Of a DNA stretch of 64,000 bases, positions 13,207 through 57,221 are shown in pieces (within the stretch, counting starts at the first letter, position 1; every line of letters begins with the position of its first letter). This DNA comes from a virus. The stretch spans positions 1 to 64,000 of IMG/VR virus record IMGVR_UViG_3300045988_125079, one strand, 5' to 3'. The translations under genes were made by a program, and so were the position numbers. Under the pieces are notes generated by a model, which ran no database searches, was not told the DNA's origin, and saw only the letters and a program-made list of their open reading frames with translations.

Positions 13207-14577
13207 TTAGCCGTAACTCACTTCGTTCTTATCGTCTCGGAATCGTACAAACGTCGGGAATTGCAGAGACTCAAGGCCGGTCTTTTTGTCCATCGTAACC
13301 TCTTTGTACTTTAATTCGACGATGCGTCCGATATAATCACCCGGATTCGCCCACACGGTAGCTCTTGTAGCATCATCAAAACCGGAACCAACACGAAGCT
13401 CGTTGTCCTTGTAGCCAACAACCAGAGCACCCATCGTACCAGCCAGGCGGTTCTGACCTTCTTCAATCGCGGTGATTCGCAGATCAACAGTATAAAAACG
13501 CTTGATTTTAAGACAGCCAGTGTGACGCGCCCGCTTATAAGGAACCGATGTATTAAGCATGAGCCCTTCCCAATCATGTTTGACTGCATAATCGAGCCAC
13601 TGAGGAATCTCATTTTGATCAGTTCCTTCATATACCATCGGCACAACCTCGATATTTTTAAGTCCTTTCTGCTCGATCATAGCAGCTAAACCTTCAAGCC
13701 ACTTGCGACGAAGCTTATATGGAGTGACAAAAGAACCATCTTCATAAGGGATGTTGCCTTTACCATTCTCAAATTCATCAGTGGGAATCAAATCAAACAC
13801 CACAAATTTGATCTGGCTTTTGTCTCCATCCGAATTCAGAATGCCCGTACCAACCCGGAATGCTTCTCCATCCGACAAACCCTCGTCATTGCGATAAACA
13901 AGCTCACCATCGTAGACGTATTCATCAATCAGCGATTCATCGCCAAGCTCATTGATGATGTCATCCTTAATATGATCGAGGCCGGTAAACTCCTTACCTT
14001 GACGAGAAATGAACTTGCCACGGTAGAAGGTGCCACGGTTCCCGTTGATTTTACGGCTCAGACTAAACCACGTATTCGGTTTAAGATTTACTTTATCAAT
14101 CGGATATCCTTGCTGAACTTCCCAAACTGGAATGACCACTTTGCCAAAAATCTTATTGACTGTAGCAGCCTCGATGCCGAGCGGCAGATTCTTTGTGAAC
14201 ACCCGCATAAGGAAGTCTTTGTGTGAAGCATTCCAATAGATGTAACTAACTGCCATTGAGATATCTTCGTCTGCTCCGGTGTTGTGCTCTGCGAGATACA
14301 GGCAAATGTCTTGGAAAGTGTGCGGCATATCGTCACGGATAAGTACCTTCTTGTTGATCTTCGCCTTAGAAATTCCTGTTGTGATCTGCGGATCGAGAAT
14401 AAAATCAAGGAAGAAAAATAACGGATTCTCACCGATCTCGTTCTTTGCATCCAACAGGATTGTTGCCTTATCGGTCTTTTTTGTGGCCTTCTGGAGCTTT
14501 TGGGTCAGTGTTTCTAGCTTGTCCAACAGCACACCGTCCAGAATCAGCTCTCCTTCGAAATCAAGTGATGATGTCAT
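13207..14577 (-). CDS. ATP-dependent DNA ligase
   Basis: Motif I variant SRKINGNRG, then YDGELVY, FVVFDL, WEGLMLN and LKIKRF. OB-domain tail ends FPTFVRFRDDK. Confidence 0.85.
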   Translation of the reverse strand: MTSSLDFEGELILDGVLLDKLETLTQKLQKATKKTDKATILLDAKNEIGENPLFFFLDFILDPQITTGISKAKINKKVLIRDDMPHTFQDICLYLAEHNTGADEDISMAVSYIYWNASHKDFLMRVFTKNLPLGIEAATVNKIFGKVVIPVWEVQQGYPIDKVNLKPNTWFSLSRKINGNRGTFYRGKFISRQGKEFTGLDHIKDDIINELGDESLIDEYVYDGELVYRNDEGLSDGEAFRVGTGILNSDGDKSQIKFVVFDLIPTDEFENGKGNIPYEDGSFVTPYKLRRKWLEGLAAMIEQKGLKNIEVVPMVYEGTDQNEIPQWLDYAVKHDWEGLMLNTSVPYKRARHTGCLKIKRFYTVDLRITAIEEGQNRLAGTMGALVVGYKDNELRVGSGFDDATRATVWANPGDYIGRIVELKYKEVTMDKKTGLESLQFPTFVRFRDDKNEVSYG

Positions 14578-15130
14578 CTTCAGTCCCCTTTCTTATTCGT
14601 TTTGGCTTTTGCGGTAGTTCATAATGGGTCAGCGCTTCACGCATTTCGTGGAGAAGAAACGTATGGATCAACCATGATGTAGTATCTGGCTCACAGAAGA
14701 TAATCTGGCAGTTATATCGAGCAAGCTATGTGGTGAGACTGCCCAGCAGTGAAGCGGGTGTCATTTTACTGCGATATGCACCGCGATTGATCTTTTCCCA
14801 TGAACCGTTTTCAATGAGTATGTAAGTTTTTGCTCCGGCCGCTGCCGCCCTGTCGAACTCTTTAGCGAACCGAATTCGATTCGTTGTGAAGTTACCACAG
14901 ATCTCAGTTAAATCAGCCTTACGTTCAATGGTCACCTTGTCTGCTAGTGAGAATTTTTCTCCATTTGGCAGTGTTACTTCAGCACTATAATCACCGAAGT
15001 TCAATCGCTTACGCATATAAGCACACGGAAACGAATTGAGTCGCTGATGCAGAAGTGGAGTATCCTTTTCGCGGTCATCCACAATAATCACCATTGACTT
15101 GAGAATTTGAGTGATTTCGTTATATGTCAT
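14561..15130 (-). CDS. ERCC4 (XPF/Mus81)-type nuclease with an in-frame TAG at 14726-14728 (recoded, or a nonsense pseudogene)
   Basis: GDYS...IERKADLTE is the GDxn-ERKxxxD nuclease motif. After the TAG the frame stays open for 54 more codons (LARYNCQIIFCEPDTTSWLIHTFLL...). It ends at a TGA that overlaps the ligase start. Confidence 0.6.
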
Positions 15131-26318: not shown

Positions 26319-26393
26319 TGGTTGCGCCAGCAAGGATCGAACTTGCGTATGGCTGAGTCAAAGTCAGCTGCCTTACCACTTGGCTATGACGCA
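26319..26393 (-). tRNA. tRNA-Gln (anticodon UUG), CCA encoded
   Basis: Hand-folded cloverleaf. Acceptor UGCGUCA/UGGCGCA, anticodon loop CUUUGAC, T-arm GCAAG-UUCGAUC-CUUGC. Confidence 0.85.
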
Positions 26394-26438
26394 TCATATA
26401 AGGCGGTACCCAGTGCTACCTGAGCACCGCCGAGAGTT

Positions 26439-26543
26439 TTACATCTTAGGAGTAGGACGATTGAAGAAATGTCCTGCCAAGAACGACACGATCATTAATG
26501 CTCCAACAATCCAAATTGCTTTACTGATTTCAATCCAGATCAA
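26439..26543 (-). CDS. candidate 34-aa hydrophobic peptide (TTG start)
   Basis: GGTGA lies 6 nt before a TTG. Product (M)IWIEISKAIWIVGALMIVSFLAGHFFNRPTPKM. Directly follows the SBP-OmpA gene. Confidence 0.25.
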   Translation of the reverse strand: MIWIEISKAIWIVGALMIVSFLAGHFFNRPTPKM

Positions 26544-26554
26544 TCTGAATCACC

Positions 26555-28141
26555 TCAGTTCTCAATTCGCATGAAACTGATATCGGTAGACTGATACACA
26601 CTTGCATCGCCGCTCAGAGTGCCAGCCGCCTTATCTGCCTGATACTTTGCGTTGCCGGAACCAGTGACAATCAGTCGATTCTGATCAATGCCCTGAGAAG
26701 CTAGATAATTCGCAACGGTCTGCGCACGATTCACAGATAGCTGAACACCAAAATCGGTCTGAACATCTGCATTGATATTGCCGTTGATGACGATCATGGT
26801 GCCATCCAGAGTCTTAGCGATGTCAACGAAATCATTCAGAACAGAAGCAGCACTTGCCTGATCGGTAAACACAGAAGAATCCGGTACGAAAGTCACATTG
26901 GCGGTCTTACTCAGCATGGAATCATAGTCCAAATTGCCAGTGACCTGCTGAGTGATGTTTGCACGGGTCTCGTCGCTTACAGTTACCTTTGTAGTAGCAT
27001 TTGCAGCAGAAGTAGACTTGAAATCACTCTTGAGCGCATCGATATATGTAGTATCAAACAGCGTATTTACGAGATCACGATTAACGGTTTCACCCAGACC
27101 CTCCCAAATATCGCACATCTGGTTATAAATCATCGGAGCGGTATCATTCAGAATATTGTAGTTGTCTTTCCAGCTTGCCATCTTAGCGTTTGCATAAGTC
27201 GCATCAATATCGGCATCAGAAGAAGTAGAGTACATCGGGAACACTTCACGAGCTGCATTGTAATTGATAGGCTGGTCATAAGACATCAGAATGCCCTGAA
27301 CGAACTTCTTGACGGTATCTTCATGAGCCGCTGCCCAATCTGCGTCAAACACAATACCGTCCATAACCAGAGAGGAGGAAGACTTCGTATCAAACACGAC
27401 AGTGCTATTGGTGTAAGTCTTGGCCTGAGTCAAATAAGGTTCCCATGTTGCAGCTACATCAATCTGACCAGCGAAATATGCCTTAGCGGTATCGTCTGCG
27501 GTGCCGAACATAATCAGATTGTTCATGATAGTCGCCTTGTCAGCATCAGACAGACTGGAATTATTAACGAACCAAGCAACCAGAGTCTCCGCCTCAGAGA
27601 ACTCAGGGACACCGATCTTGGCATTGACCCACGAATTCACATCCGCAAACTGAGTGGAAGCGATAATACCATCGCCGCCGTAGCTGTAGTTGGTAAAAAT
27701 TGGCATGATAACATTCTTGCCAGCGTCAGTGAACTTCTGAGACAGGAATGCGACACGGTTCGTAGTATAGCCAGCAGCCTGCAGATCACCAGAGATCAGA
27801 GCGTTACTGGACTCAGTAGCGTCGTTGATGACATTGATATTCACCTTGATGCCGAGCTGATCAAACACAGAACCGGGCTGAGTAGTGAGACCACCATTTG
27901 CCGTAATGCAGCTCAACCACCCCGCCCACTCATCCAGAGACAGATTGATCGTATCATCCCCAGCGGAATTAGACGGCTTATCTGTACTGATAGAAGTGCT
28001 CGGCTTTGATGTAGTCGGCTTCTTCTTATCGAACTTAATCACGCCGCTCTTGATGCTGCCAACGACACCAATAGCAACAGCCACCGCAAGAACCACGCCA
28101 ACAACAGCACGGCCAGCCTTAGTCAATTTGAACTTAGACAT
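26555..28141 (-). CDS. membrane-anchored NitT/TauT (NMT1)-type substrate-binding domain fused to a C-terminal OmpA/MotB-like domain
   Basis: N-terminal TM (AVVGVVLAVAVAIGVVG). SBP-like core. C-terminus NRAQTVANYLASQGIDQNRLIVTGSGNAKY matches the OmpA_C motif. Confidence 0.7.
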   Translation of the reverse strand: MSKFKLTKAGRAVVGVVLAVAVAIGVVGSIKSGVIKFDKKKPTTSKPSTSISTDKPSNSAGDDTINLSLDEWAGWLSCITANGGLTTQPGSVFDQLGIKVNINVINDATESSNALISGDLQAAGYTTNRVAFLSQKFTDAGKNVIMPIFTNYSYGGDGIIASTQFADVNSWVNAKIGVPEFSEAETLVAWFVNNSSLSDADKATIMNNLIMFGTADDTAKAYFAGQIDVAATWEPYLTQAKTYTNSTVVFDTKSSSSLVMDGIVFDADWAAAHEDTVKKFVQGILMSYDQPINYNAAREVFPMYSTSSDADIDATYANAKMASWKDNYNILNDTAPMIYNQMCDIWEGLGETVNRDLVNTLFDTTYIDALKSDFKSTSAANATTKVTVSDETRANITQQVTGNLDYDSMLSKTANVTFVPDSSVFTDQASAASVLNDFVDIAKTLDGTMIVINGNINADVQTDFGVQLSVNRAQTVANYLASQGIDQNRLIVTGSGNAKYQADKAAGTLSGDASVYQSTDISFMRIEN

Positions 28142-28169
28142 GTTATTCTCTCCTATTTGATTTTTAATT

Positions 28170-29000
28170 TTATTTCTTGGACTGAGTATTCAATCCAGAC
28201 GATTTAGTAAAGGCATTGATATCCTTAATGTCGTATGTGATGGGTTTCGCAGTCCCCTTCTTTAGACTCTCCAGATAATCATTCACCTTATAATCAGCAG
28301 TTTTCGCATTGGCCTTATCCAATTTACCATCACGACTTGATTGATACAGGACCTTTGCGCCAGCTGCTTTCTCGCGACTCTCCTGCAGACCATCACGAGT
28401 AGCATTGAGCATCTTATCTGTACCAGTAGCAGAACGAAACTTACCAACAGAATCATATGCGGCCGAAATCTGCTCATTAGCCTGCATCTCGGAGACGACA
28501 TCTTTACTCTCACGTTTTAGAGCTGCCAGCTGATTTTCTAACTTTTCTTTGATGTTTTTCATTTCTTCAACTGCCGGGCGCATTTTAGCATACTGCTGAG
28601 ACAGATTCTCCATAGCGTCCATTTCTTCCTGAAGATTACGAGCAAAAATAGTAGCAGACTCTTCGTCGCCACGACTCATAGCGGACTTAGCGCGTTTATC
28701 GTAATCTTCAGCTCGTTTCTGCGCGGAGGCGAACTGATCTTGAATCGTCTTGAGCTTGCCAGTTAAATTTCTCAGAGTGTAGCACGCATCGTTATATTGA
28801 TCGGTTGCCTCATCAATCTTCTGTGCATAGATTGCCTTGGCTCCTTCAGGAGTCTTAGCTGTGTCCTGCACAAACTTTTGAAGAAATCCACCAGCGAGAG
28901 TCTTAATTTGCTCTCTCCAAGACGGGAACAGAACCAGACTGATTACAAATGCACCACTGACACAAATGACCACAAACTCAGGAATGGTTAAAGAAAACAT
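28170..29000 (-). CDS. PspA/IM30 (ESCRT-III-like) family protein with N-terminal TM segment
   Basis: Long coiled coil with a PspA-like pattern (AKSAMSRGDEESATIFARNLQEEMDAMENL...). TGATG overlap with the upstream gene. Confidence 0.6.
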   Translation of the reverse strand: MFSLTIPEFVVICVSGAFVISLVLFPSWREQIKTLAGGFLQKFVQDTAKTPEGAKAIYAQKIDEATDQYNDACYTLRNLTGKLKTIQDQFASAQKRAEDYDKRAKSAMSRGDEESATIFARNLQEEMDAMENLSQQYAKMRPAVEEMKNIKEKLENQLAALKRESKDVVSEMQANEQISAAYDSVGKFRSATGTDKMLNATRDGLQESREKAAGAKVLYQSSRDGKLDKANAKTADYKVNDYLESLKKGTAKPITYDIKDINAFTKSSGLNTQSKK

Positions 29001-29650
29001 CAGACGCCCTCCTTCCCGGCGGGCTCCGTCTTATCCTCTTCGATAAACTCCTCAATGGAAGAAATCATTTTGAGTTCATCCTGAACTGTATTGGTGATCT
29101 TTTCAATGGCCGCACTAGCTTCAACGTTGCGATTCGTCAAAGCCTCGATCTGTTCCTTCATAGATTCGATCTGCTGGTCGTTGCCCTTCATCTCATCAAA
29201 CAACGCATTCATCTTATCGTTACCAACAGCTCGCAGAAGCTCCTTGCGCTGCTTCGCATCAGAGATAATCGCGGTTGCATCATATCCCAGTGTCGCCATC
29301 AGATTTTTTACTGTGGCACGCTTAGTCTTGGTGGGCATCTCAGACGGGAATGTATCGATCACATCTTTGATTTTGTAGACAGTAACTGCATCAGCAGGAT
29401 TCATACCATTGGTCTCGTAAACCGCCTGAACATCGATGGTGTCGCCCTCAGGAACCTCGGCCTGAACCGGTTCATCTATTGGGAGATCTTCGTTAATATA
29501 GTGGTCACCAACGTCACCACAAGCGCGAAGCTCATTCGTAGTATCCGGCATATCATACTCAGAAGCAGCTACACCCTCAACAAGACCGAGTTTTTCAAAA
29601 AAACTTTTCTTTGCCATAATTTTCTCCTCTTTAATCTTCTTCTCCGACAT
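29000..29650 (-). CDS. acidic coiled-coil protein with amphipathic N-terminus
   Basis: KKSFFEKLGLVEG N-terminal helix. C-terminal coiled coil. No family recognised. Confidence 0.5.
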   Translation of the reverse strand: MSEKKIKEEKIMAKKSFFEKLGLVEGVAASEYDMPDTTNELRACGDVGDHYINEDLPIDEPVQAEVPEGDTIDVQAVYETNGMNPADAVTVYKIKDVIDTFPSEMPTKTKRATVKNLMATLGYDATAIISDAKQRKELLRAVGNDKMNALFDEMKGNDQQIESMKEQIEALTNRNVEASAAIEKITNTVQDELKMISSIEEFIEEDKTEPAGKEGV

Positions 29651-29807
29651 CTATTGATTCATAGTGGTCGTCTTTAAATTCATTAAAGCCGCCACCAAAA
29701 TACCAGCCGCGATTTTCTATAAATGCTAAGAATTCATCTACAACGTCATTCAAACTGACAGTGGTTGGAACGTTCAGACAGCCATCTATTTCGATTTCGT
29801 GTGTCAT
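29641..29807 (-). CDS. hypothetical small protein (55 aa)
   Basis: AAGGAGG RBS before the ATG at 29807. Product MTHEIEIDGCLNVPTTVSLNDVVDEFLAFIENRGWYFGGGFNEFKDDHYESIDVGEED. Confidence 0.4.
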
Positions 29808-29816
29808 GTGTCCTCC

Positions 29817-30569
29817 TTATGAAAATTTCCACTTAAAAATCTTCTTGATACAAGCGTTTGTGATCCAATCAAACAAAATACTGAAAACCACAATCGCCAA
29901 TATTCCAACAAACACCAACGTTGTGCGACCACGAGCAGACGAAGTATAGATCAGATATCCGATACCATACTTTGCATTCACCGTTTCCGCTACTGCGATG
30001 TAGGTCCAACCGATGGCGTACATTGTAGCGAATGACTGACAAATAGATGGAGCAGCCATCGGAAGAATGATTCGTGTAACCATGCTAAACTTCCCTGCCC
30101 CATCAATACTAGCTGCTTCAATCACATCGTCTCTGACATCATCCAAAGCAATCAGTACACTTGGTAACATGAATACGAAGCTGGCCACAAACAGAAAAGC
30201 AATTTTCATCTGTTCCCCTATGCCGAACCACATCGTAAGCAGCGGATAAAAAGCAGTCACTGGCAAAAATCTCATTGCCCGAATCGCTGGATACAACAGG
30301 TTTTGAATCGGATGACAGATTTTCATCAGGCAGCCAAGTGGAACTGCAATACCGGCACTCAGAAGAGCTGCTGCTGTAATACGAATCAATGAATATCGAA
30401 ACGCTTTGAGCATCGTGCCATTCTGTATCAACAGAAAGAACTCACGGAACACAGCACCTTTCTGGGGAACAAAAATTGGCGAAGTCAGAGCCGCGCCAAT
30501 GTCCCAGATAATCGCCAACAGAATCAGAAGAATCACACGATAGATCCAATCTTTCTTCGTCGTTTTCAT
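29817..30569 (-). CDS. ABC transporter permease (NitT/TauT-type, EAA loop)
   Basis: About six TM segments. EAASIDGAGKFSMVTRIILPMAAP is an EAA motif. Confidence 0.85.
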   Translation of the reverse strand: MKTTKKDWIYRVILLILLAIIWDIGAALTSPIFVPQKGAVFREFFLLIQNGTMLKAFRYSLIRITAAALLSAGIAVPLGCLMKICHPIQNLLYPAIRAMRFLPVTAFYPLLTMWFGIGEQMKIAFLFVASFVFMLPSVLIALDDVRDDVIEAASIDGAGKFSMVTRIILPMAAPSICQSFATMYAIGWTYIAVAETVNAKYGIGYLIYTSSARGRTTLVFVGILAIVVFSILFDWITNACIKKIFKWKFS

Positions 30570-30796
30570 TATTCAGTTTTCTCCTTTGGTGGGTCTTCTG
30601 GCAGAGGCATCCAATGTGTAACATGATTTAAATACCAGCATTCATTTGCATCACACCACTGGTTGTCATCATCAAGATAACCTTTGCGCTGTCCGCATTC
30701 TTCGTCATAAATCCAAACGACATCACTCGAAGCCCATTTCTTATCTTCTTTAGGTGGTAAGGAGGTTTTTACAGAGATCCAATCACTTGTTTTCAT
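30569..30796 (-). CDS. DUF551-like phage protein
   Basis: WISVKTSLPPKE ... HVTHWMPLPEDPP. ATG at 30796 is preceded by GAGGT. Confidence 0.5.
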   Translation of the reverse strand: MKTSDWISVKTSLPPKEDKKWASSDVVWIYDEECGQRKGYLDDDNQWCDANECWYLNHVTHWMPLPEDPPKEKTE

Positions 30797-30829
30797 TTTG
30801 AATACCTCATAATATTTAATTTTCAAAAA

Positions 30830-30901
30830 TGGCCTGTACCGGAATTGAACCGATGTCTCCGCCGTGAAAGGGCAGCATCTTCACCTCTTGACTAACAGGC
30901 C
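30830..30901 (-). tRNA. tRNA-Glu (anticodon UUC)
   Basis: Hand fold. Acceptor GGCCUGU/ACAGGCC, anticodon loop CUUUCAC, T-loop UUCAAUU. No encoded CCA. Confidence 0.85.
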
Positions 30902-30907
30902 ATATGA

Positions 30908-30993
30908 CGCGGCGAATCCGATTCGAACGGATGGAGGTTTAACCCTCAGAAGTTTTCAAGACTTCCGCATTAGACCAACTATGCTACCGCCGC
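30908..30993 (-). tRNA. tRNA-Ser (anticodon UGA), long variable arm
   Basis: Hand fold. Acceptor GCGGCGG/UCGCCGC, anticodon loop CUUGAAA, variable arm UGAGGGUUAAACCUCC, T-loop UUCGAAU. Confidence 0.85.
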
Positions 30994-31010
30994 ATATAAA
31001 AGAGGATTAT

Positions 31011-31529
31011 TCACCCTCTAGTTTTTCTTCTATCAATTTCTTTATTAACAGCGTCTAAGAAGTTTATCCAGTTCGCTTTGTCAAACTCATCTCCGAAATC
31101 AAAGAAACCATTCTTACGCTCTTCTAAATCTCTCTGGAAGCACCATAACGTTTTATCGCTCAGCTCGCCTAGATGTGGCGTAATGAAATCGATCACAAGA
31201 CTTGGCATATAGGTTCTGCGTCCTACCGCATATCTAACAGCACAATTGCAAACAGCACCGAAATTATCATTGGCAGGGTCTACCATTCCTTTAGGAGCAT
31301 CTGCCCTCAAATCATCCACGCTACATTCAAGGGCTTCGGCGAATTTTGCTAGTTGCGTTTCCTTCTTTACGCCACGCTTTTGCTTTTCAACAGCGCTGAC
31401 ATACGCACCGGTCGCTCCAACTATCCTTGCAACGTCTTTCTGTCTGATACCAAGTTCAAGCCTGCGCTTCCTGATTTTCTCCCCTACTGTCATACTCGTC
31501 CAGTTCCTTTCTGATTTGCTGGCGTTCAA
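31011..31529 (-). CDS. XRE-family HTH transcriptional regulator with C-terminal unknown domain
   Basis: GEKIRKRRLELGIRQKDVARIVGATGAYVSAVEKQKRG. The track start at 31529 is a TTG codon. An ATG alternative lies at 31493. Confidence 0.7.
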   Translation of the reverse strand: MNASKSERNWTSMTVGEKIRKRRLELGIRQKDVARIVGATGAYVSAVEKQKRGVKKETQLAKFAEALECSVDDLRADAPKGMVDPANDNFGAVCNCAVRYAVGRRTYMPSLVIDFITPHLGELSDKTLWCFQRDLEERKNGFFDFGDEFDKANWINFLDAVNKEIDRRKTRG

Positions 31530-31686
31530 TTTGCTTCAATCTCGCCTTTGCCAGCTTGCGATTGCCAGCCTTGCGGATAGCCCAGTTGTTGCGGTGATTC
31601 GCCCAGCAAGCGTATCTATGGCTAAATTCACTCTGATCATACCAGCCTTTACCAATAAGACCTTTATACGTCTGTTGTTGTTTCAT
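31456..31686 (-). CDS. hypothetical basic protein
   Basis: Co-directional ORF. Confidence 0.4.
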   Translation of the reverse strand: MKQQQTYKGLIGKGWYDQSEFSHRYACWANHRNNWAIRKAGNRKLAKARLKQIERQQIRKELDEYDSRGENQEAQA

Positions 31687-31996
31687 CGTCGTTAACCTCC
31701 CACCAAATTTCGTTTTCAGGAACGAATTTGTCTTGAACTGGAGAGAAGTTCATCCAGTCAAAAGAAATCATCGACTGAGCCTTATCTTTAGTTAAGTGGC
31801 GAGTGATTTTATTATGTTTCCAATTTGTCTTCAGTCGTTCTTCGACCGCTGTATATGTAATAGGGTTGATTTTCATCTGATAAACGTTTTTAATCGTACC
31901 AGATTTTATCGTGTCGTACAGATTGATTGCTTTGTAAAAATCATTAGAAGTAACGCACTTTATGTAATCATCAGGTTTGAATTTTACGACGTTCAC
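31664..31996 (-). CDS. hypothetical protein (GTG start)
   Basis: The track ORF extends over the suppressor tRNA. A GTG at 31996 is preceded by AAAGGAG at 8 nt spacing and lies just downstream of the tRNA 3' end. Confidence 0.5.
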   Translation of the reverse strand: MNVVKFKPDDYIKCVTSNDFYKAINLYDTIKSGTIKNVYQMKINPITYTAVEERLKTNWKHNKITRHLTKDKAQSMISFDWMNFSPVQDKFVPENEIWWEVNDDETTTDV

Positions 31997-32019
31997 AAAC
32001 TCAGCTCCTTTTGTTTTCT

Positions 32020-32095
32020 TGGCACGCCTGTTTCGATTCGAACGAAAATCCACTGGGTTTAGAGCCCATTCCTTTACCAATTAAGGTACAGACGC
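32020..32095 (-). tRNA. suppressor tRNA, anticodon CUA (reads UAG), CCA encoded
   Basis: Hand fold of 76 nt: GCGUCUG UA CCUU AAUUGGUA AAGG A AUGGG CUCUAAA CCCAG UGGAU UUUCG UUCGAAU CGAAA CAGGCGU G CCA. U33 and A37 are present. One A27-G43 mismatch. Confidence 0.8.
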
Positions 32096-32264
32096 TCATA
32101 TAGCTGTCTTTCCAGCCGCCATCGGTTTATGTTTTTGTTCCGCAGAACTACTAACAATACCATCACATCAGCCGCACGCGCTAATGCTGGCTACAATAGT
32201 TGCAACTCGAAAACTACTTACCGCGTGGTGCAACCGGCGGGTTACGATCAGATTAGATTAGTAC

Positions 32265-32798
32265 CTAATCTTCATTTGAGATAAGTTTAATATCCATGAC
32301 TCTGCATGGCAAATTATAAAACTTGCACCATTTCTTTACTGAGTTTCCAGTAACATTAAACATTCTTCCGATTTGATCAAATGGAGTGTCTCTAATTAAT
32401 TTTTTCAGATTTTCTCTTGTTGGCCAACAACTATGAAGTTTATTTTTATGACAGGAAACACAGAGCTTTGCTTTTCTGTCGATAATCACTCCACATACTT
32501 GACATCGATTTATTTTTTCTTCACACCAATATGAACCATCTTCATATTGATGACACATACCAAAGTCTTCGTGCAGCATGTGGAAACGAGTATGGTCGCT
32601 TTGGGTTGCAAATACTATAAGATTTTCTGGACGATTATCGTTTCGGATATGGTTTATATGATGAACCACTTCTTCACGTTTCAACGGCCTCCCTATTTTT
32701 TGCTCTGCAACCAAAACATGTTCATACACCATTCCACTGGTATTTGCATGTAAATGATTTGGGCACCAAACTAATATGTAACCATTTGCTATTGCCAT
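32265..32798 (-). CDS. HNH homing-endonuclease-like protein
   Basis: MAIANGY...EEVVHHINHIRNDNRPENL is an HNH motif, followed by a Zn ribbon CQVCG...CVSCH. ATG at 32798 follows GGGAGG. Ends in TAG, with an in-frame TAA 4 codons later. Confidence 0.85.
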   Translation of the reverse strand: MAIANGYILVWCPNHLHANTSGMVYEHVLVAEQKIGRPLKREEVVHHINHIRNDNRPENLIVFATQSDHTRFHMLHEDFGMCHQYEDGSYWCEEKINRCQVCGVIIDRKAKLCVSCHKNKLHSCWPTRENLKKLIRDTPFDQIGRMFNVTGNSVKKWCKFYNLPCRVMDIKLISNED

Positions 32799-32821
32799 AT
32801 GATAAACCTCCCGCCAGTAAC

Positions 32822-32900
32822 TGGTGTGATCGATGGGGCTCGAACCCACGAAAACCCTCTGATTAAAAGTCAGATGCTCTACCAACTGAGCTACGATCAC
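32822..32900 (-). tRNA. tRNA-Lys (anticodon UUU), CCA encoded, enlarged variable loop
   Basis: Hand fold. Acceptor GUGAUCG/CGAUCAC, anticodon loop CUUUUAA, T-arm GUGGG-UUCGAGC-CCCAU, 8-nt variable region. Confidence 0.8.
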
Positions 32901-33352
32901 ATATACAAACCACAGAGGGATGTCACCTGTGGTCTTTTGTCCTGGCTTTAACGGGTCAGGCGTCCGGCATTTACCGTTACTCTTCAGAGCACTATTGGCG
33001 ATATGCTTATCCACTGCGGTTCTCAAACTCGATCATCCTTTTTGGTCAAGCCTCTTCCGGGTTATAGCCGCGCTACATAAGGTTTTCAATGTTATTCCTT
33101 CATTACTGTTTTCGAGCTGGTGAGACTTACGCACAGTTGCGCTCGGAATGCGGATCTTACATCGTCAGGGCACGCAGTTTGACCAAGCTTGCTACATCGG
33201 TCCCTGATCAGGAGTGTGACTGCCTCGCTAATCCTGTTGCAAACATCATCGATAATATCATTTGGGTCTGTGGATTTATCTCAGACGGAAAACGCATTAT
33301 CAATCGGAGGGAATTATGAACTCAAATTCAATTATCAAATCAACTTGCACAT
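32901..33352 (-). ncRNA. candidate large structured non-coding RNA between tRNA-Phe and tRNA-Lys
   Basis: 452 nt with no minus-strand ORF of 60 aa or more. Visibly more G/C than neighbouring genes. Drawable stems include CCACAG...CUGUGG (32910-32932), CGAGC[CGCA-ACUG-UGCG]...GCUCG (33113-33145) and the palindrome CCUGAUCAGG (33202-33211). Confidence 0.3.
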
Positions 33353-33427
33353 TGGTGGTCCCGGCCTGAATTGAACAGGCGCACACGGAGCTTCAATCCG
33401 CTGCTCTACCAACTGAGCTACAGAACC
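33353..33427 (-). tRNA. tRNA-Phe (anticodon GAA), CCA encoded
   Basis: Hand fold. Acceptor GGUUCUG/CGGGACC, anticodon loop UUGAAGC, T-arm GCCUG-UUCAAUU-CAGGC. Confidence 0.85.
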
Positions 33428-33432
33428 GTAAT

Positions 33433-33987
33433 TTATATCGTCAACCATTCTTCATTTGTATAATTTTTTATATCGCTAGATTTAAATGGCAAATTATAAT
33501 ACTTGCACCAGTTCTTTATGCAATTTCCAGTTACATTGAACTGTCTCCCTATTTGTTCAAAAGGAAATGATCTTATCAGATTTTTCAAAGTTTCTCTTTT
33601 AGGGCGTCCGTCTCGTCCTTCCTCCCTGTAACATTCTCGGCACAGAGTAGCTCCAGGATATATAACACAACCGCAACGCACACAATGATTGATTTTTAAT
33701 GGGTTGCTTTTACACGAAACCGTTCCATCAATATCAAATGTACATAAAGTAAAATCTTCTTCATTCATATGGAAAATCGAATGATCCTTTTTGGTCTTAA
33801 AAATCATTAAGTTGTCTGGATTATTATTGGACCGATTATGATCAATATGATGCACTACTTCTTCAGCAGTTAGATATCTTCCAAGTTTCTTTTCTGCAAC
33901 TAAAACATGTTCATATACCATTCCACTAATATTCGCATGTGGATGATTAGGCATATAAATTCGAACATATCCGTTAGCATATCCCAT
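33433..33987 (-). CDS. HNH homing-endonuclease-like protein (paralog of 32265..32798)
   Basis: MGYANGYVRIYMPNHPHAN...EEVVHHIDHNRSNNNPDNL. Zn ribbon CVRCG...CRECY. C-terminal HTH-like FEQIGRQFNVTGNCIKNWC. Confidence 0.85.
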   Translation of the reverse strand: MGYANGYVRIYMPNHPHANISGMVYEHVLVAEKKLGRYLTAEEVVHHIDHNRSNNNPDNLMIFKTKKDHSIFHMNEEDFTLCTFDIDGTVSCKSNPLKINHCVRCGCVIYPGATLCRECYREEGRDGRPKRETLKNLIRSFPFEQIGRQFNVTGNCIKNWCKYYNLPFKSSDIKNYTNEEWLTI

Positions 33988-34009
33988 GATTTTATCCTCC
34001 TAATTTATT

Positions 34010-34076
34010 TGAAGAAGTAGGATTCGAACCTACACTCGGGCTTTCGACCCAGCTCTACCAGTTAAGCTATTCTCCC
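34010..34076 (-). tRNA. tRNA-like element with aberrant anticodon arm (possible pseudo-tRNA)
   Basis: D-arm GCUU-AACUGGUA-GAGC and T-arm GUAGG-UUCGAAU-CCUAC look canonical. Only 18 nt lie between them (GGG-UCGAAAG-CCC). G1-A72 is mismatched. 67 nt. Confidence 0.35.
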
Positions 34077-34191
34077 ATATAAACGGCAGGTTTTGTTACG
34101 CCCCTGCCTTGGCGCTCACCATTTATCAGCCATGCGGTAAACGACGGGGCTTATGTAATCGACCCACGAACCTACGCCCATGGATTTTAAA

Positions 34192-34290
34192 GACCTTTGA
34201 CCTGTATTCGTTATTATTTGACCGTTGATAAAAGTTTAACCTTTGAACTTTCAACCTTTAATCTTTAAATAAATAAACTTTAACCTTTCC
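34192..34290. repeat. cluster of AACCTTT-core direct repeats (iteron/operator-like)
   Basis: gacctttga (34192-34200), aagtttaacctttgaa (34232-34247), gaactttcaaccttta (34245-34260) and aaactttaacctttcc (34275-34290), all in an A/T-rich non-coding stretch. Confidence 0.4.
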
Positions 34291-34350
34291 GAAGAATTTG
34301 AGTCAATTACGTGTTGGCCCTCAGGACAACTCCTCCTCTTGACTCGATGT

Positions 34351-34420
34351 TTTTGAATATCGGAATCGAACCGACAAGACAGATTTTATGTCTGCGCCTT
34401 AACCATTTGGCTAATTCAAA
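34351..34420 (-). tRNA. tRNA-like element with non-canonical anticodon loop
   Basis: Acceptor UUUGAAU/AUUCAAA and T-arm GUCGG-UUCGAUU-CCGAU. The best anticodon hairpin is AGACA-UAAAAUC-UGUCU, which lacks U33. The variable region is almost absent. Confidence 0.35.
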
Positions 34421-34598
34421 ACCCAAGTATTGTTAGAATATATTTATACTTGATCTTCATATAGGCTTATCAGGCCGCTTTTATATGTGACTATTTGCTT
34501 CTTTATTTATTTGATTTCACTCTAGCGCCGCCGTCATTGGCAAAGAGCGAACAATTACAGTTTGTCGTTTTCAATAAACAGTGAATATGTATCAATGA

Positions 34599-35240
34599 TT
34601 AGTATTCGATTGTGATTTCGGTAGTTGCATTAGATTCAGATAAAACCGCGTCAACCTCAGCTTTGAAACTATTGATTTCGTCGGCCAGATTTTCCTTAGT
34701 TTTTTTAATGTTAATACCGTCAATCAGAATCATAGTTTCGCGCTCAATGTAACCATCTCGCATATCGCGAATTGCATCAGGAGACATCCCGTCTTTGTCG
34801 GCGGGGTTATTGCTTCGAATGACAAAATCATCCGCACGATCACTCAGGCGAGAATTCGTAGTTTCAATTACACTGACTGCATTGGAATACTGTCGCTCCA
34901 TCTGATTAAGCAGATCACTCAAGAAGTCGATTCCGTGCTGATTCATCCAAATAATTTGAGCGATAGTGTAGTCCTTACCGCATACAGTGCGATGGGTAAC
35001 AGCGTTAGACTCGGAGATAGCGCGCTTAATAGCATTCAGGCGAGCAATTAGGTCTTTGATTTTATCCAGTGAACTCTGACCATTTGCCTTATACTCTTCA
35101 ATGGTGACACCACCAAGCTTCTTCATGCTCTGCTTAGCAGCTCCGCAGAAAACAGCTTCACGAGTCAGCTTAGAAATCCGGTCTTCCAAAACGTTAATTT
35201 CAGCCAGTGCACGATGAATTGTCATAGTTTCAGTAGTCAT
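34599..35240 (-). CDS. hypothetical protein (coiled-coil rich)
   Basis: 213-aa ORF flanked by tRNA genes. AAAGGAGAA RBS. No family recognised. Confidence 0.55.
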   Translation of the reverse strand: MTTETMTIHRALAEINVLEDRISKLTREAVFCGAAKQSMKKLGGVTIEEYKANGQSSLDKIKDLIARLNAIKRAISESNAVTHRTVCGKDYTIAQIIWMNQHGIDFLSDLLNQMERQYSNAVSVIETTNSRLSDRADDFVIRSNNPADKDGMSPDAIRDMRDGYIERETMILIDGINIKKTKENLADEINSFKAEVDAVLSESNATTEITIEY

Positions 35241-35292
35241 AGTCGTTCTCCTTTAAAATATATAATCTTTAATGCGGTAGCCCGCTATTCAA

Positions 35293-35368
35293 TGGTGCTG
35301 GGGGTGGGGCACGATCCCACAACCTGAAAATTACAAATTTCCTGCGCTACCAATTACGCCACTCCAGC
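35293..35368 (-). tRNA. tRNA-Thr (anticodon UGU), CCA encoded, atypical T-loop
   Basis: Hand fold. Acceptor GCUGGAG/CCCCAGC (one A-C mismatch), anticodon loop UUUGUAA, T-arm GUGGG-AUCGUGC-CCCAC. Confidence 0.7.
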
Positions 35369-37192: not shown

Positions 37193-37609
37193 TTATGCGA
37201 TAGCTTTTGGGTTGGTAGTTTGAGCCACCACATTCAGAAGCGGACATTGAATCATCATGGCGTTCACAGCCTTTGCCCAGTTTGCTTCAGTAAAAATGCC
37301 AATCGGCTCACTAAGCTGCAAATTGCGAATCGTATCTCTGCCCTCAACGACAAGAGTAGAGTCTTTCTTTAACCCTTCAACTTCGCCAGCCTTATAATCA
37401 ACATGAACAGGATTGCGACTGGCGGTTCGTTTTGTTGTAAACGGAATGACCTCGCATTGTCCAGATTTTTTGTTGTAAATATTGTTGGATACGATTAGAT
37501 ATGGATGAATTCCAATATACTTATGTACACTGGTTTTCGCTTCGCTTTCAGCTACATAGCCAAACCTAATCTCTCCGATCTTTGGGACGCTCTTGCCAGC
37601 CATGAACAT
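37193..37609 (-). CDS. MazF/PemK-family (CcdB/MazF fold) endoribonuclease-like protein
   Basis: GEIRFGYV...IGIHPYLIVSNNIYNKKSGQCEVIPFTTK...STLVVEGRDTIRNLQLSEPIGIF follows the PemK pattern. ATG at 37609 is preceded by AAGGAGG. Confidence 0.6.
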   Translation of the reverse strand: MFMAGKSVPKIGEIRFGYVAESEAKTSVHKYIGIHPYLIVSNNIYNKKSGQCEVIPFTTKRTASRNPVHVDYKAGEVEGLKKDSTLVVEGRDTIRNLQLSEPIGIFTEANWAKAVNAMMIQCPLLNVVAQTTNPKAIA

Positions 37610-37651
37610 ATTTATGACCTCCTTGTTTATGGCTTGTCTTTTCATGGTCCC

Positions 37652-40373: not shown

Positions 40374-41159
40374 TCACACTACCTTTAATGCCATTCGATT
40401 GATAGTAACAACTAACTCGTTGACACGGTTTCTATCGATGGTGTCCGGCAAAGCAGTGTTCGCCTTATCGTACTGCAGGCGTTTTTCATATTCTTTGTGG
40501 AAATCTTTTACATCATGCTTGATATAACCGTTTGTAGCCTGGAATTCACCGTTTCGAGCCATCATCAATAGGTCGTGGTTTTCCGCTCGATTCGTAATGA
40601 TTTCACCCTTTTCCAAGATGTCAAATACCGTGAGATAAAGACGAATCATATTCATGATGGTTTTGTTCATTCGCTTCTTGGTGATCTGATCTTCTGGGTG
40701 TTGATTACACCATTCGCCCAAAGTGACTGCCTTCTTGAACAATTTATCTGCAAAGCCACCAAACGAATACACGACCTGTCTGGACAGGAACAACTTCTTA
40801 TTATCTATCAAAAGCTTTGTGGCCGGATGATAGCTTATAACGAGATCATCAACATTTCCAAGCTGCTCCAGCATGTTCGGATTGCCGCTACACATGAGCT
40901 TAACTGCTTTATTGAAGCTAAATACCGTTGTATCAGTGGTTTCATCGACCCAGTGATCGAACGTGTCCATGCCAAGCAGCTCATATTCTGTATTAAGCGC
41001 GACACCACGGATATCCACATCAGATCCTGCTACATTCGTTCCATAAGCATGGCTACCGCCAATAGTCAGAAACATCAAATGCTTGCTTAGGTGTGGATCA
41101 GTACGTAGAAAATCATACGGTTTGCTATCAATAATACGTTGTAATTCTTCTCGTGTCAT
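40374..41159 (-). CDS. Pol-beta-superfamily nucleotidyltransferase
   Basis: GGSHAYGTNVAGSDVDIRGV gives the GS...DxD motif. ATG at 41159 is preceded by AAAGAGGTGG. Confidence 0.7.
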   Translation of the reverse strand: MTREELQRIIDSKPYDFLRTDPHLSKHLMFLTIGGSHAYGTNVAGSDVDIRGVALNTEYELLGMDTFDHWVDETTDTTVFSFNKAVKLMCSGNPNMLEQLGNVDDLVISYHPATKLLIDNKKLFLSRQVVYSFGGFADKLFKKAVTLGEWCNQHPEDQITKKRMNKTIMNMIRLYLTVFDILEKGEIITNRAENHDLLMMARNGEFQATNGYIKHDVKDFHKEYEKRLQYDKANTALPDTIDRNRVNELVVTINRMALKVV

Positions 41160-41250
41160 TTTTACCACCTCTTTACGTTTTAGATTATTAACATCACAGC
41201 AATAAAACAAAATGCCCACATCGGAACAATTAACCATACCCAATCAAGGC

Positions 41251-46582: not shown

Positions 46583-46594
46583 AAGAACTCTCCC

Positions 46595-47794: not shown

Positions 47795-47828
47795 AAATCA
47801 CTCACTTTCTATTGTAATTTTTTACAAT

Positions 47829-48581: not shown

Positions 48582-48594
48582 AATTCATTCCTCC

Positions 48595-49065: not shown

Positions 49066-49278
49066 TCACCTCCGATTCAACTCTTTGATTCCAAAATATT
49101 GCGCTCCTCGTTGACTACGCAAATTAAACTGCTCAAGCTCTGGGGTCCATACAACCACATCCATCTCATCAAAAGCCCCTGCATGAATTAACTTCAGAGC
49201 TTCTTTTCTATCGCATTTGCGAATAACTTTTCCATCGTACCAAAAGCGAATTAAGTTATCAGTGGGTTTATAAATCAT
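49066..49278 (-). CDS. hypothetical protein
   Basis: ATG at 49278 shares one nt with the NAMPT stop (TGATG). Confidence 0.4.
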   Translation of the reverse strand: MIYKPTDNLIRFWYDGKVIRKCDRKEALKLIHAGAFDEMDVVVWTPELEQFNLRSQRGAQYFGIKELNRR

Positions 49279-50756: not shown

Positions 50757-50775
50757 TTCAAATCCTCCTTAAATC

Positions 50776-50940: not shown

Positions 50941-50963
50941 ATCTATTCAACCCATTTTAGAAC

Positions 50964-56934: not shown

Positions 56935-56943
56935 ATAACCACC

Positions 56944-57210: not shown

Positions 57211-57221
57211 ATTTTCACTCC

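What the first reader, a model, noticed from the sequence alone, without database searches (positions are those of the whole stretch)
32020..32095. Phage-encoded amber-suppressor tRNA (anticodon CUA) together with near-absence of TAG terminators
- **The tRNA.** A 76-nt sequence folds by hand into a canonical cloverleaf. It has a 7-bp acceptor stem with two G-U pairs, D-loop AAUUGGUA, T-loop UUCGAAU, discriminator G and an encoded CCA.
- **The anticodon.** The anticodon loop is C-U-C-U-A-A-A, so the anticodon is CUA and reads UAG.
- **Stop-codon usage.** I read the last codon of 98 minus-strand ORFs. About 59 end in TAA, about 37 in TGA and only 2 in TAG. One of the two (14726) is followed by 54 further sense codons. 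The other (32265) is backed up by an in-frame TAA four codons later.
- **Interpretation.** This is the pattern expected for TAG-recoded (code-15-like) phages reported from gut Firmicutes and Bacteroidetes.
- **Inserted amino acid.** The loop differs by one base from the usual bacterial tRNA-Trp loop CUCCAAA and shares G73. I therefore cannot call the inserted amino acid (Gln, Trp or other).
Basis: partly seen in the sequence, partly recalled or inferred. Interest (0 to 1): 0.75.

Follow-up and report, generated by a model that had tools for sequence, protein, structure and literature searches.

The report
Phage tRNA reads TAG as tryptophan
A large prophage of the gut bacterium Faecalibacterium carries a real amber-suppressor tRNA derived from a tryptophan tRNA, and it and its relatives use the TAG stop codon as tryptophan rather than the glutamine assumed for all recoded phages so far.

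Summary
**Observation: confirmed.**
- Window 32020-32095 (-) is a canonical tRNA with anticodon CUA (ARAGORN; Rfam 58.6 bits).
- Only 2 of about 92 minus-strand ORFs end in TAG.

**Interpretation: half right.** TAG is a sense codon, but it means Trp, not Gln (code 15).

- **In the window:** the TAG at 14726-14728 sits inside an ERCC4 nuclease domain. The same codon is TGG in 61 of 64 relatives. It is TAG in 3, and all 3 carry the tRNA.
- **In relatives' late genes** (terminase, portal, YonG, YonJ): 260 in-frame TAGs lie in 1147 otherwise uninterrupted gene copies.
- **Which amino acid:** at 26 TAG columns, relatives that lack the tRNA have TGG in 20, Tyr codons in 2 and CAG in 1.
- **Link to the tRNA:** 9 of 9 tRNA-bearing genomes have in-frame TAGs; 4 of 4 tRNA-less genomes have none.
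- **Origin of the tRNA:** one relative has tRNA-Trp(CCA) in the identical slot, behind a near-identical spacer.

**Context.** The phage is SPbeta-like, and the host is Faecalibacterium.

**Caveat.** TAG-stop depletion is lineage-wide, including tRNA-less relatives, so it is not itself evidence of recoding.

**Novelty.** The searched literature reports only TAG→Gln and TGA→Trp for phages. Nothing here is experimentally tested.

The parts
32020..32095 (-). tRNA with anticodon CUA (amber suppressor). It is of tRNA-Trp descent, with G73, an encoded CCA and anticodon loop CUCUAAA.
   Evidence: ARAGORN and Rfam at 58.6 bits. Cloverleaf covariation among 10 homologues. The same slot holds tRNA-Trp(CCA) in L172.
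32096..32225 (-). Conserved spacer of about 130 nt directly upstream of the tRNA. It is near-identical to the spacer that precedes tRNA-Trp(CCA) in relative L172 and tRNA(CUA) in L174.
   Evidence: Alignment A3 and A2.
14561..15130 (-). ERCC4-family nuclease gene of 189 codons with an in-frame TAG at codon 135. Under code 11 it is truncated to 134 aa (14726-15130).
   Evidence: Translation. The Pfam ERCC4 domain spans residues 17-154, across the TAG. The 189-codon frame is kept in the relatives that extend far enough.
14726..14728 (-). The in-frame TAG codon, read as Trp.
   Evidence: The homologous codon is TGG in 61 of 64 related genomes and TAG in 3. All 3 carry tRNA(CUA).
32265..32798 (-). 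HNH homing-endonuclease gene (177 aa) between tRNA-Lys and tRNA(CUA). It is the only ORF in the window that plausibly terminates at TAG (32265-32267). A TAA back-up lies at 32253-32255.
   Evidence: Translation with the HNH motif VHHINHIRNDNRPENL. A remnant of a tRNA-Lys 3' end lies at 32226-32249 just downstream.
26319..35368 (-). tRNA cluster: Gln UUG, Glu UUC, Ser UGA, Sup CUA, Lys UUU, Phe GAA, Leu UAA, Thr UGU, plus a degenerate tRNA-like at 34009-34076. It lies on the strand of the early and replication genes and is interspersed with HNH genes.
   Evidence: The cluster is syntenic in relatives.

Best explanation
The window is the integrase-proximal early and replication arm of an SPbeta-like temperate phage of Faecalibacterium. 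Related genomes are 100-150 kb.

**What the evidence shows**
- The tRNA cluster holds an amber-suppressor tRNA that descends from a phage tRNA-Trp. The changes are CCA to CUA in the anticodon, plus G1.U72 and C2-G71 in the acceptor stem.
- TAG is a sense codon that stands at tryptophan positions.
- TAG is almost absent from early genes: 1 TAG against 297 TGG in the window.
- TAG makes up 6-17% of Trp codons in the late operon of relatives. That operon holds the YonJ exonuclease, YonG, terminase, portal and head genes.
- TAG is not used as a terminator.

**What is inferred**
- A host TrpRS charges the tRNA with Trp.
- The tRNA is transcribed with the early genes. Full-length packaging and structural proteins can therefore be made only after the lytic programme has started. 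This is a translational checkpoint that keeps late genes silent in the lysogen, as proposed for other recoded prophages.
- The code change followed a codon-capture route: TAG terminators were purged first, then a tRNA-Trp anticodon mutated, and TAG reappeared at Trp sites.
For: 1. **The tRNA is real and under structural selection**.
2. **In-window proof.** An ERCC4 domain crosses the TAG. That codon is TGG in 61 of 64 relatives.
3. **Late genes of relatives.** Adjacent code-11 ORFs fuse when TAG is sense. ORF number falls from 32 to 26 and mean length rises from 193 to 243 aa. This matches tRNA-less relatives under code 11.
4. **Amino acid.**
   - Of 29 in-gene TAG columns in 71 genomes, about 21 have TGG as the sole or main alternative. 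Four are Tyr/Phe/Trp mixes and 2 are CAG.
   - In the 4 tRNA-less genomes the codon at 26 such columns is TGG in 20, TAT in 2 and CAG in 1.
   - Cultured standard-code SPbeta-like phages have W, Y or F at the aligned residues. YonG position 156 is W in SPbeta, phiCD211 and pCD1602_4.
   - TAG+TGG stays constant at 1.10-1.22 per 100 codons.
5. **Association with the tRNA.** All 9 genomes with tRNA(CUA) have 3-8 stringently defined in-frame TAGs per 21 kb. All 4 genomes without it have none. This includes Sup+ and Sup- genomes within the same portal clade.
6. **Not pseudogenes.** 1147 of 1152 gene-by-genome cells have no TAA or TGA interruption, yet they hold 260 TAGs.
7. **tRNA descent.** L172 has tRNA-Trp(CCA) in the same slot behind a near-identical spacer and with a near-identical T-arm. 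Trp(CCA) is the nearest non-CUA tRNA for 7 of 9 alleles.
8. **Phage family and host**.
Against: - There is no experimental evidence: no proteomics and no charging assay.
- The window's own late region is not available. Late-gene evidence comes from relatives. The closest are 98-99% identical at genes flanking the tRNA and at ERCC4, but the lineage is mosaic.
- tRNA sequence similarity to Trp (66-77%) is only modestly above Gln and Lys (60-71%).
- From memory, bacterial TrpRS normally uses C35 as an identity element. The E. coli tRNA-Trp C35U suppressor su7 is charged largely with Gln. Trp charging here therefore needs either a tolerant TrpRS or compensating changes.
- No phage TrpRS or release factor was found among the roughly 40 window proteins scanned.
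- Two low-frequency TAG columns align with CAG.
- The 9/9 versus 0/4 association is not phylogenetically independent.
Confidence: 0.85

Rival explanations
1. Standard phage code 15: the tRNA(CUA) is charged with glutamine and TAG means Gln, as in crAss-like and Lak phages.
For: - This is the only TAG reassignment reported for phages.
- From memory, G73 and U35 favour GlnRS in E. coli, and su7 (tRNA-Trp C35U) inserts mostly Gln there.
- Two TAG columns align with CAG.
Against: - 20 of 26 TAG columns are TGG in standard-code relatives, and only 1 is CAG.
- All high-frequency TAG columns are TGG, apart from one variable column (YonO col 72) near that gene's start.
- Distant homologues show W, Y or F and never Q.
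- The ERCC4 site is TGG in 61 of 64 relatives.
- The phage keeps a separate tRNA-Gln(UUG) that is less similar to the CUA tRNA than tRNA-Trp is.
Confidence: 0.04
2. Ambiguous or partial decoding. The tRNA is charged with a mixture (Trp plus some Gln, as with su7), or it competes poorly with RF1. Each TAG would then yield both truncated and full-length protein and act mainly as an attenuator.
For: - No RF1 antagonist or RF2 gene was seen in the window.
- Only 5-11 TAGs occur per 21 kb of late genes, so modest suppression could suffice.
- There is the su7 precedent (from memory).
Against: - TAGs sit in essential single-copy genes (TerL, portal) at fixed positions in 38-44 of about 70 genomes. 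This argues for efficient read-through.
- The substitution pattern is Trp or aromatic only.
- This rival modifies the best explanation rather than excluding it.
Confidence: 0.1
3. The in-frame TAGs are inactivating TGG-to-TAG nonsense mutations in decaying prophages, and the tRNA is unrelated cargo. This is the pseudogene artefact that Shulgina and Eddy warn gives false 'stop = Trp' calls.
For: TGG to TAG is a single G-to-A transition. Such artefacts are documented.
Against: - The equally likely TGG-to-TGA change is never seen: 1147 of 1152 frames are uninterrupted by TAA or TGA, against 260 TAGs.
- The same TAGs are fixed in up to 44 genomes.
- There is a perfect association with the tRNA.
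- The TAG+TGG total is constant.
Confidence: 0.01
4. It is a pyrrolysine tRNA, as ARAGORN labels it.
For: ARAGORN prints 'tRNA-Pyl' for any CTA anticodon.
Against: - The tRNA is a canonical cloverleaf with an 8-nt D-loop containing GG, a 5-nt variable loop and a T-loop UUCGAAU.
- From memory, tRNA-Pyl has a 5-nt D-loop, a 3-nt variable loop and a 6-bp anticodon stem, and lacks GG and T-psi-C.
- No pyl genes appear among the scanned proteins.
- TAG aligns with TGG.
Confidence: 0.005

Closest known systems
TAG-recoded (code 15) gut phages with a suppressor tRNA(CUA): crAss-like, Lak, and the Garnet and Topaz prophages (Borges et al.; Peters et al. PMC9523058)
   Same: - The phage encodes a tRNA(CUA) and infects a standard-code host.
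- In-frame TAGs are concentrated in late genes.
- The integrase and early arm are essentially TAG-free.
- The proposed role is control of late or lytic gene expression.
   Different: - The amino acid is Trp, not Gln.
- Recoding is sparse, about 5-11 codons per 21 kb, so coding density barely changes (0.865 to 0.883). Density-based detectors may miss it.
- The phage belongs to the SPbeta-like family and infects Faecalibacterium.
TGA-to-Trp (code 4) recoded phages, such as the Agate and Jade clades
   Same: A stop codon is captured for tryptophan through a tRNA-Trp-derived suppressor in phages of Firmicutes.
   Different: - The codon is TAG (anticodon CUA), not TGA (UCA).
- UCA keeps C35, whereas CUA changes it.
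- No phage TrpRS or RF1 operon was seen here.
E. coli su+7 (supU) amber suppressor, which is tRNA-Trp with C35U (Yaniv, Folk, Berg and Soll 1974; cited from memory)
   Same: The mutational route is identical: a tRNA-Trp anticodon changes from CCA to CUA. G73 and the CUCNAAA loop are retained.
   Different: - su7 is a laboratory mutant that GlnRS mischarges mainly with Gln.
- Here the evolutionary record says Trp.
- The natural tRNAs also carry fixed acceptor-stem changes (G1.U72, C2-G71).
Balanophoraceae plastid code (NCBI table 32, TAG = Trp; from memory, and the only TAG-to-Trp context found)
   Same: The codon assignment is the same: UAG = Trp.
   Different: That code belongs to a eukaryotic organelle with an extremely AT-rich, reduced genome and applies genome-wide. 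Here the code is that of a virus inside a standard-code bacterium, restricted by gene class and delivered by a phage tRNA.
Bacillus phage SPbeta, C. difficile phiCD211 and Staphylococcus SPbeta-like phages
   Same: They share the YonO RNAP, YonJ exonuclease, YonG, YonF terminase and YonE portal synteny. They are 125-150 kb temperate genomes with PolIII-alpha replication modules.
   Different: The cultured members use the standard code and TAG terminators freely. No tRNA(CUA) was seen in the regions fetched.

Membership tests
tRNA (Rfam RF00005) | A cloverleaf that scores above the family gathering threshold, with stems maintained by covariation. | tested here: met
   58.6 bits against a threshold of 29. 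97% of cells paired, 12 of 21 pairs compensatory, 0 of 500 shuffles as good.
Amber suppressor tRNA | Anticodon CUA in a 7-nt loop with U33 and a purine at position 37. | tested here: met
   The loop C-U-C-U-A-A-A is invariant in all CUA homologues.
Amber suppressor tRNA | It actually suppresses: in-frame UAG in functional genes is read through. | tested here: met
   Met by comparative genomics only. Not tested biochemically.
Genetic code 15 (TAG = Gln) | In-frame TAG aligns with Gln in homologues. | tested here: not met
   TGG at 20 of 26 columns and CAG at 1. W, Y or F in distant homologues.
TAG = Trp code (assignment of NCBI table 32) | In-frame TAG aligns with Trp in homologues. | tested here: met
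TAG = Trp code (assignment of NCBI table 32) | Trp is found at UAG positions in the protein. | not testable with these tools
   Needs LC-MS/MS.
tRNA-Trp lineage | Orthology with a tRNA-Trp(CCA); G73 discriminator; CUCNAAA anticodon loop. | tested here: met
   L172 has tRNA-Trp(CCA) in the same slot behind a near-identical spacer. G73 and the loop are conserved. It is the nearest neighbour for 7 of 9 alleles, but by small margins.
tRNA-Trp lineage | Aminoacylation by TrpRS. | not testable with these tools
   Needs a charging assay.
tRNA-Pyl | Compact D-loop, 3-nt variable loop, 6-bp anticodon stem, no GG or T-psi-C, with pylS and pylBCD nearby. | tested here: not met
   The sequence shows an 8-nt D-loop with GG, a 5-nt variable loop and T-loop UUCGAAU. 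The defining features are from memory.
Stop-codon-recoded phage in the sense of Borges et al. | The recoded codon is enriched in late genes and avoided in early and lysogeny genes. | tested here: met
   Window early genes have 1 TAG against 297 TGG. Late genes of relatives have 6-17% TAG. The integrase arm is TAG-free.
SPbeta-like phages | A YonO-type single-subunit RNAP plus YonJ, YonG, YonF and YonE synteny, in a large temperate genome. | tested here: met
   tblastn hits to SPBc2 yonG and yonF and the phiCD211 terminase. Annotated synteny. PHROG portal, terminase and exonuclease. The YonO assignment rests on position, the size match (852 vs 839 aa), a tblastn alignment to the SPbeta locus and a GADYDGD motif read by eye.

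The most novel reading that the evidence does not exclude
This lineage would be the first natural UAG = Trp genetic code in a bacterial virus, and outside a plastid.

- It arose when a phage tRNA-Trp mutated its anticodon from CCA to CUA, in a lineage that had already purged TAG terminators.
- All intermediates of codon capture survive side by side among close relatives: TAG-free genomes with no suppressor, a genome with tRNA-Trp(CCA) in the slot, and genomes with tRNA(CUA) and TAG re-emerging only at Trp sites.
- The tRNA sits among homing endonucleases that may move it between phages.
- It would also mean that a Firmicute TrpRS accepts a CUA anticodon. That contradicts the idea that only TAG-to-Gln and TGA-to-Trp are accessible to phages.
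Probability: 0.55. Interest if true: 0.85.

Novelty: new variant of a known kind. Interest (0 to 1): 0.78.

Why it matters
1. **Annotation.** Phage pipelines (prodigal-gv, Pharokka-gv, Mgcod and earlier surveys) translate a recoded TAG as Gln, and several detect recoding by gain in coding density. These phages would be missed because recoding is sparse. If caught, they would receive the wrong residue at conserved Trp positions in terminase, portal and nuclease domains.
2. **Which reassignments are accessible.** It widens the set of stop-codon reassignments known to be open to phages. It also challenges the argument that only GlnRS (for CUA) and TrpRS (for UCA) can be hijacked.
3. **Testing codon capture.** The tRNA-less, tRNA-Trp(CCA) and tRNA(CUA) relatives form a natural series for testing codon capture against ambiguous-intermediate models.
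4. **Synthetic biology.** A naturally evolved amber-suppressing tRNA-Trp scaffold from a Firmicute system may be useful for genetic-code engineering.
5. **Host biology.** Faecalibacterium is a keystone gut commensal. A translational checkpoint on a 100-150 kb prophage bears on its induction biology.

Tried and rejected
- **Exact 37-nt search for the tRNA core in IMG/VR** found nothing. The window's allele is not there, so relatives had to be reached through a neighbouring protein.
- **The look-up of encoding contigs with the last ORF of the window** found nothing, because that ORF is cut by the window end.
- **The first ~25 kb beyond the window** (L008, L011, L018) showed no in-frame TAG. For a while this looked like a refutation. 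The recoded genes start only where the gene strand flips.
- **TGA recoding (code 4)** is rejected. 36 genes end in TGA, and tiling gets worse under code 4.
- **Unconstrained MFE folding** of the tRNA does not give a cloverleaf (z = -0.73). This is uninformative for tRNAs. Covariation was used instead.
- **Promoter and terminator scan** around the tRNA is at chance level.
- **Origin from tRNA-Lys** was considered, because tRNA-less relatives have a tRNA-Lys in the slot with a similar anticodon stem. It is rejected: no TAG column aligns with AAG or AAA, and the discriminator differs (A73 against G73).
- **TAG = Tyr** was considered because of the TAT/TAC columns. It is rejected: TGG dominates, and bacterial tRNA-Tyr has a long variable arm (from memory).
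- **PHROG 'unknown' families** 15503, 26582 and 24618 match parts of TerL. I suspected TAG-split artefacts, but their boundaries do not match the TAG position, so I dropped the idea.
- **Search for a DGR** next to the reverse transcriptase found only paralogous small-gene repeats.
- **Limits of my gene calling.** My greedy ORF tiling is crude. Two '+ strand' ORFs (54507-56678 and 61204-61881) are artefacts, because public gene calls place minus-strand genes there.

Full report
**1. The observation**

ARAGORN finds eight tRNAs on the minus strand between 26.3 and 35.4 kb. One is a 76-nt tRNA with anticodon CTA at 32020-32095. Rfam's tRNA model scores it 58.6 bits against a gathering score of 29.

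- acceptor stem with G1.U72 and U4.G69;
- D-loop AAUUGGUA;
- anticodon loop CUCUAAA;
- T-loop UUCGAAU;
- G73 and an encoded CCA.

ARAGORN's 'tRNA-Pyl' label is only its default name for CTA. The molecule is a canonical cloverleaf, not a tRNA-Pyl.

An unconstrained MFE fold is uninformative. Covariation is not. Ten distinct homologues from related phages keep 97% of cloverleaf cells paired, and 12 of 21 pairs show double changes. None of 500 shuffles is as good, and slid registers pair only 34-47%.

A crude ORF tiling gives about 92 minus-strand ORFs ending 54 TAA, 36 TGA and 2 TAG. Coding density is 95.8% under code 11 and shows no real gain when TAG is made sense.

**2. What the window is**

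Pfam finds the following:
- PolIII-alpha, DnaB, primase-like, ligase, NrdD, dUTPase, PD-(D/E)XK and ERCC4 nucleases;
- an NAD-salvage cluster;
- a reverse transcriptase;
- a Tn916-type integrase and Xis at the low end.

The identical integrase lies at the end of a 105.5-kb contig. In shorter contigs it lies next to a bacterial carboxyltransferase gene. Window position 1 is 54 nt from that gene.

The bacterial gene is 100% identical to a Faecalibacterium MAG and 95% identical to F. prausnitzii ATCC 27768. The window is therefore the integrase-proximal arm of a Faecalibacterium prophage.

Late proteins of relatives hit SPbeta yonG and yonF, the phiCD211 terminase and Staphylococcus SPbeta-like phages. 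The order YonO, YonJ, YonG, YonF, YonE is conserved. This is an SPbeta-like phage. Related IMG/VR genomes are 100-150 kb.

**3. Looking for recoding outside the window**

I walked from the window's high end through public contigs: L008, L011, L018 and L028. The next ~25 kb holds small genes on the same strand and no in-frame TAG.

Where the gene strand flips, which is the late operon beginning at the YonO-like RNAP, adjacent code-11 ORFs fuse when TAG is read through:
- a 271-aa protein (TAG at codon 152);
- YonG (codons 155 and 250);
- terminase (codon 470);
- the YonJ exonuclease.

PHROG and Pfam profiles match straight across these TAGs.

In loci centred on the portal gene from 71 related genomes, making TAG sense changes the two closest tRNA-bearing relatives of the window. 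ORF number falls from 32 to 26 and mean length rises from 193 to 243 aa. These are exactly the values that tRNA-less relatives show under code 11.

**4. The amino acid is tryptophan**

- Among 19 genomes, and then 71 genomes, I tabulated the codons aligned with each in-gene TAG.
- Of 29 such columns, about 21 have TGG as the sole or dominant alternative. Examples are TerL col 471 (TAG 38, TGG 33), YonG col 252 (43, 28), YonJ col 53 (44, 26) and portal col 354 (11, 60).
- Four columns are Tyr/Phe/Trp mixtures. Two, each with TAG in only 1-2 genomes, are CAG.
- In the four relatives that lack the tRNA, and so must use the standard code, the codon at 26 of these columns is TGG in 20, TAT in 2 and CAG in 1.
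- In cultured standard-code SPbeta-like phages the aligned residues are W, Y or F. YonG position 156 is W in SPbeta, phiCD211 and pCD1602_4. None is Q.
- TAG+TGG per 100 codons is constant: 1.10-1.22 in tRNA-bearing genomes and 1.10-1.13 in tRNA-less genomes. TAG replaces TGG one for one.

**5. The pseudogene rival**

Shulgina and Eddy warn that 'stop = Trp' inferences can come from TGG-derived nonsense mutations in pseudogenes. That does not apply here.

In 18 late-gene families across 64 full-length loci, 1147 of 1152 frames have no TAA or TGA interruption. The five exceptions are the gene at the locus edge. Yet those frames contain 260 TAGs against 3897 TGGs. The equally likely TGG-to-TGA transition is never seen.

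**6. Link to the tRNA**

The tRNA cluster is syntenic in relatives. Nine contigs are known to carry tRNA(CUA). All nine have 3-8 in-frame TAGs that are each flanked by at least 60 stop-free codons, within 21 kb of late genes. Four contigs have no such tRNA in the cluster, and all four have none.

One tRNA-bearing genome (136856) belongs to the same portal clade as the tRNA-less ones. No other suppressor-type tRNA occurs in any fetched locus.

**7. Evidence inside the window**

The ORF 14726-15130, which 'ends' in TAG, is an ERCC4 nuclease. Read through, it is 189 codons long (14561-15130). The Pfam ERCC4 domain covers residues 17-154, across the TAG at codon 135.

In 64 relatives the frame is conserved. 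The codon is TGG in 61 and TAG in 3, and all three carry tRNA(CUA). So the window itself contains a TAG = Trp codon.

The other TAG (32265) ends an HNH homing endonuclease, with TAA four codons later. It is either a true terminator in a recently arrived mobile gene or a harmless 4-residue extension.

In the window's early genes the ratio is 1 TAG to 297 TGG. In late genes of relatives TAG is 6-17% of Trp codons.

**8. Descent of the tRNA**

In relative L172 the slot after tRNA-Lys holds tRNA-Trp(CCA), with A1-U72 and G73. Several features of it match the window's tRNA(CUA):
- The ~130-nt spacer upstream is near-identical.
- The D-arm is alike.
- The T-arm is alike apart from one compensatory pair.
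- The CUCNAAA anticodon loop is alike.

All CUA alleles share G1.U72, C2-G71, G73 and the loop. Trp(CCA) is the nearest non-CUA tRNA for 7 of 9 alleles. The margins are small: 66-77% against 60-71% for Gln and Lys.

The route CCA to CUA is that of the E. coli su7 suppressor (from memory).

**9. TAG terminators**

Their near-absence is real but not diagnostic:

| Source | TAG stops |
|---|---|
| tRNA-less relatives, early genes | 4 of 141 |
| tRNA-less relatives, late genes | 0 of 106 |
| Faecalibacterium sample | 12 of 133 |
| Cultured SPbeta-like phages | used freely (3 of 23 to 11 of 26 per locus) |

Either the lineage purged TAG stops before the tRNA changed (codon capture), or the tRNA-less genomes lost the tRNA and reverted. 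I could not decide between these.

**10. Mechanism**

Shown:
- a functional-looking suppressor tRNA of Trp descent on the early strand;
- TAG at Trp sites, concentrated in the packaging and head operon.

Inferred:
- Host TrpRS charges the tRNA. No TrpRS or release factor was found among the roughly 40 window proteins scanned.
- Early expression of the tRNA licenses late-protein synthesis.
- Late genes stay untranslatable in the lysogen.

**11. Novelty**

Full-text searches found only TAG-to-Gln and TGA-to-Trp (plus TGA-to-Gly in code-25 hosts) for phages. Borges et al. state this explicitly. Annotation tools and surveys assume Gln. TAG-to-Trp surfaced only for Balanophora plastids. Other searches found nothing relevant.

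The library lacks most subscription papers, so prior description cannot be excluded.

**Verdict**

The finding is a new variant of a known kind. It is of high interest to people who study genetic-code evolution and phage annotation. It is supported by strong comparative evidence, but no biochemistry.

Noticed in passing
window 32226-32249 (-), next to the HNH gene 32265-32798: A 24-nt remnant identical to the 3' end of a relative's tRNA-Lys (GATCGTAACCCGCCGGTTGCACCA) lies just downstream of the HNH gene. An intact but divergent tRNA-Lys sits upstream at 32822-32900. The HNH cassette seems to have inserted into, or replaced part of, a tRNA-Lys gene. HNH genes pepper the tRNA cluster (also 33433-33987). 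They may move tRNA alleles, including the suppressor, between phages.
   Followed up: partly
window 34009-34076 (-): A tRNA-like sequence found by Rfam only (39.5 bits). It has a shortened anticodon stem and the loop UCGAAAG, which is GAA (Phe-like) but with C33. Relatives have odd ARAGORN calls (anticodons ATA, ATG, 'at') in the same slot. It may be a degenerate or unconventional tRNA.
   Followed up: partly
window 46016-52062 (-): An NAD+ salvage and reconstitution cluster: isochorismatase/nicotinamidase (46016-46582), NAD synthase (47829-48581), Macro domain (48595-49065), NAMPT (49278-50756) and a phosphoribosyltransferase-like protein (51235-52062). It is interrupted by a NUMOD/HmuI-type homing endonuclease (46595-47794). 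It looks like a counter-defence module against NAD-depleting systems.
   Followed up: no
window 59676-60908 (-): A 410-aa reverse transcriptase (RVT_1) next to a ThiF-like protein (about 61186-61860) and a second integrase-like gene (57880-58686). No DGR-type template/variable repeat was found within 56.5-64 kb. The repeats there are paralogous genes of about 90 aa (56638-57763, 58714-59025).
   Followed up: partly
L028 10872-13370 and L193 1765-4323 (relatives, outside the window): An 830-850-aa protein with a GADYDGD motif sits at the position of SPbeta yonO, the single-subunit RNAP that transcribes late genes. PHROGs lists it only as 'unknown function' (phrog_8308). It marks the start of the TAG-containing operon and itself carries TAG in a few genomes.
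   Followed up: partly
window 26555-30569 (-): Unusual cargo lies between tRNA genes: a 528-aa protein with NMT1/THI5-like and OmpA domains, a PspA/IM30 protein, and an ABC-type permease component (BPD_transp_1).
   Followed up: no
window 37193-37645 (-), 40374-41243 (-), 52074-53177 (-); about 7.6-7.9 kb: A PemK/MazF-like toxin, an RlaP-type (RNA-repair pathway) nucleotidyltransferase, and an nSTAND3/AAA ATPase. A small protein is flagged in the public gene calls as Acb2/Tad1-hairpin (anti-CBASS/Thoeris sponge-like; L002 3464-3673).
   Followed up: no
L165, L181 (tRNA-less relatives) 9439-9514 and 9593-9668: In relatives lacking tRNA(CUA), a tRNA-Lys(UUU) occupies the slot directly upstream of the same downstream gene. 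Its anticodon stem (GCAGU/ACUGC) resembles that of one tRNA(CUA) allele group. This suggests recombination among tRNA genes in the cluster.
   Followed up: partly
tRNA(CUA) alleles in L001, L107, L169, L174-L186: At least three divergent allele groups of the suppressor exist. They are distributed mosaically. The genome closest to the window at the flanking gene (137781, 98%) carries a different allele group from the window. The window's exact 37-nt core is absent from IMG/VR.
   Followed up: partly
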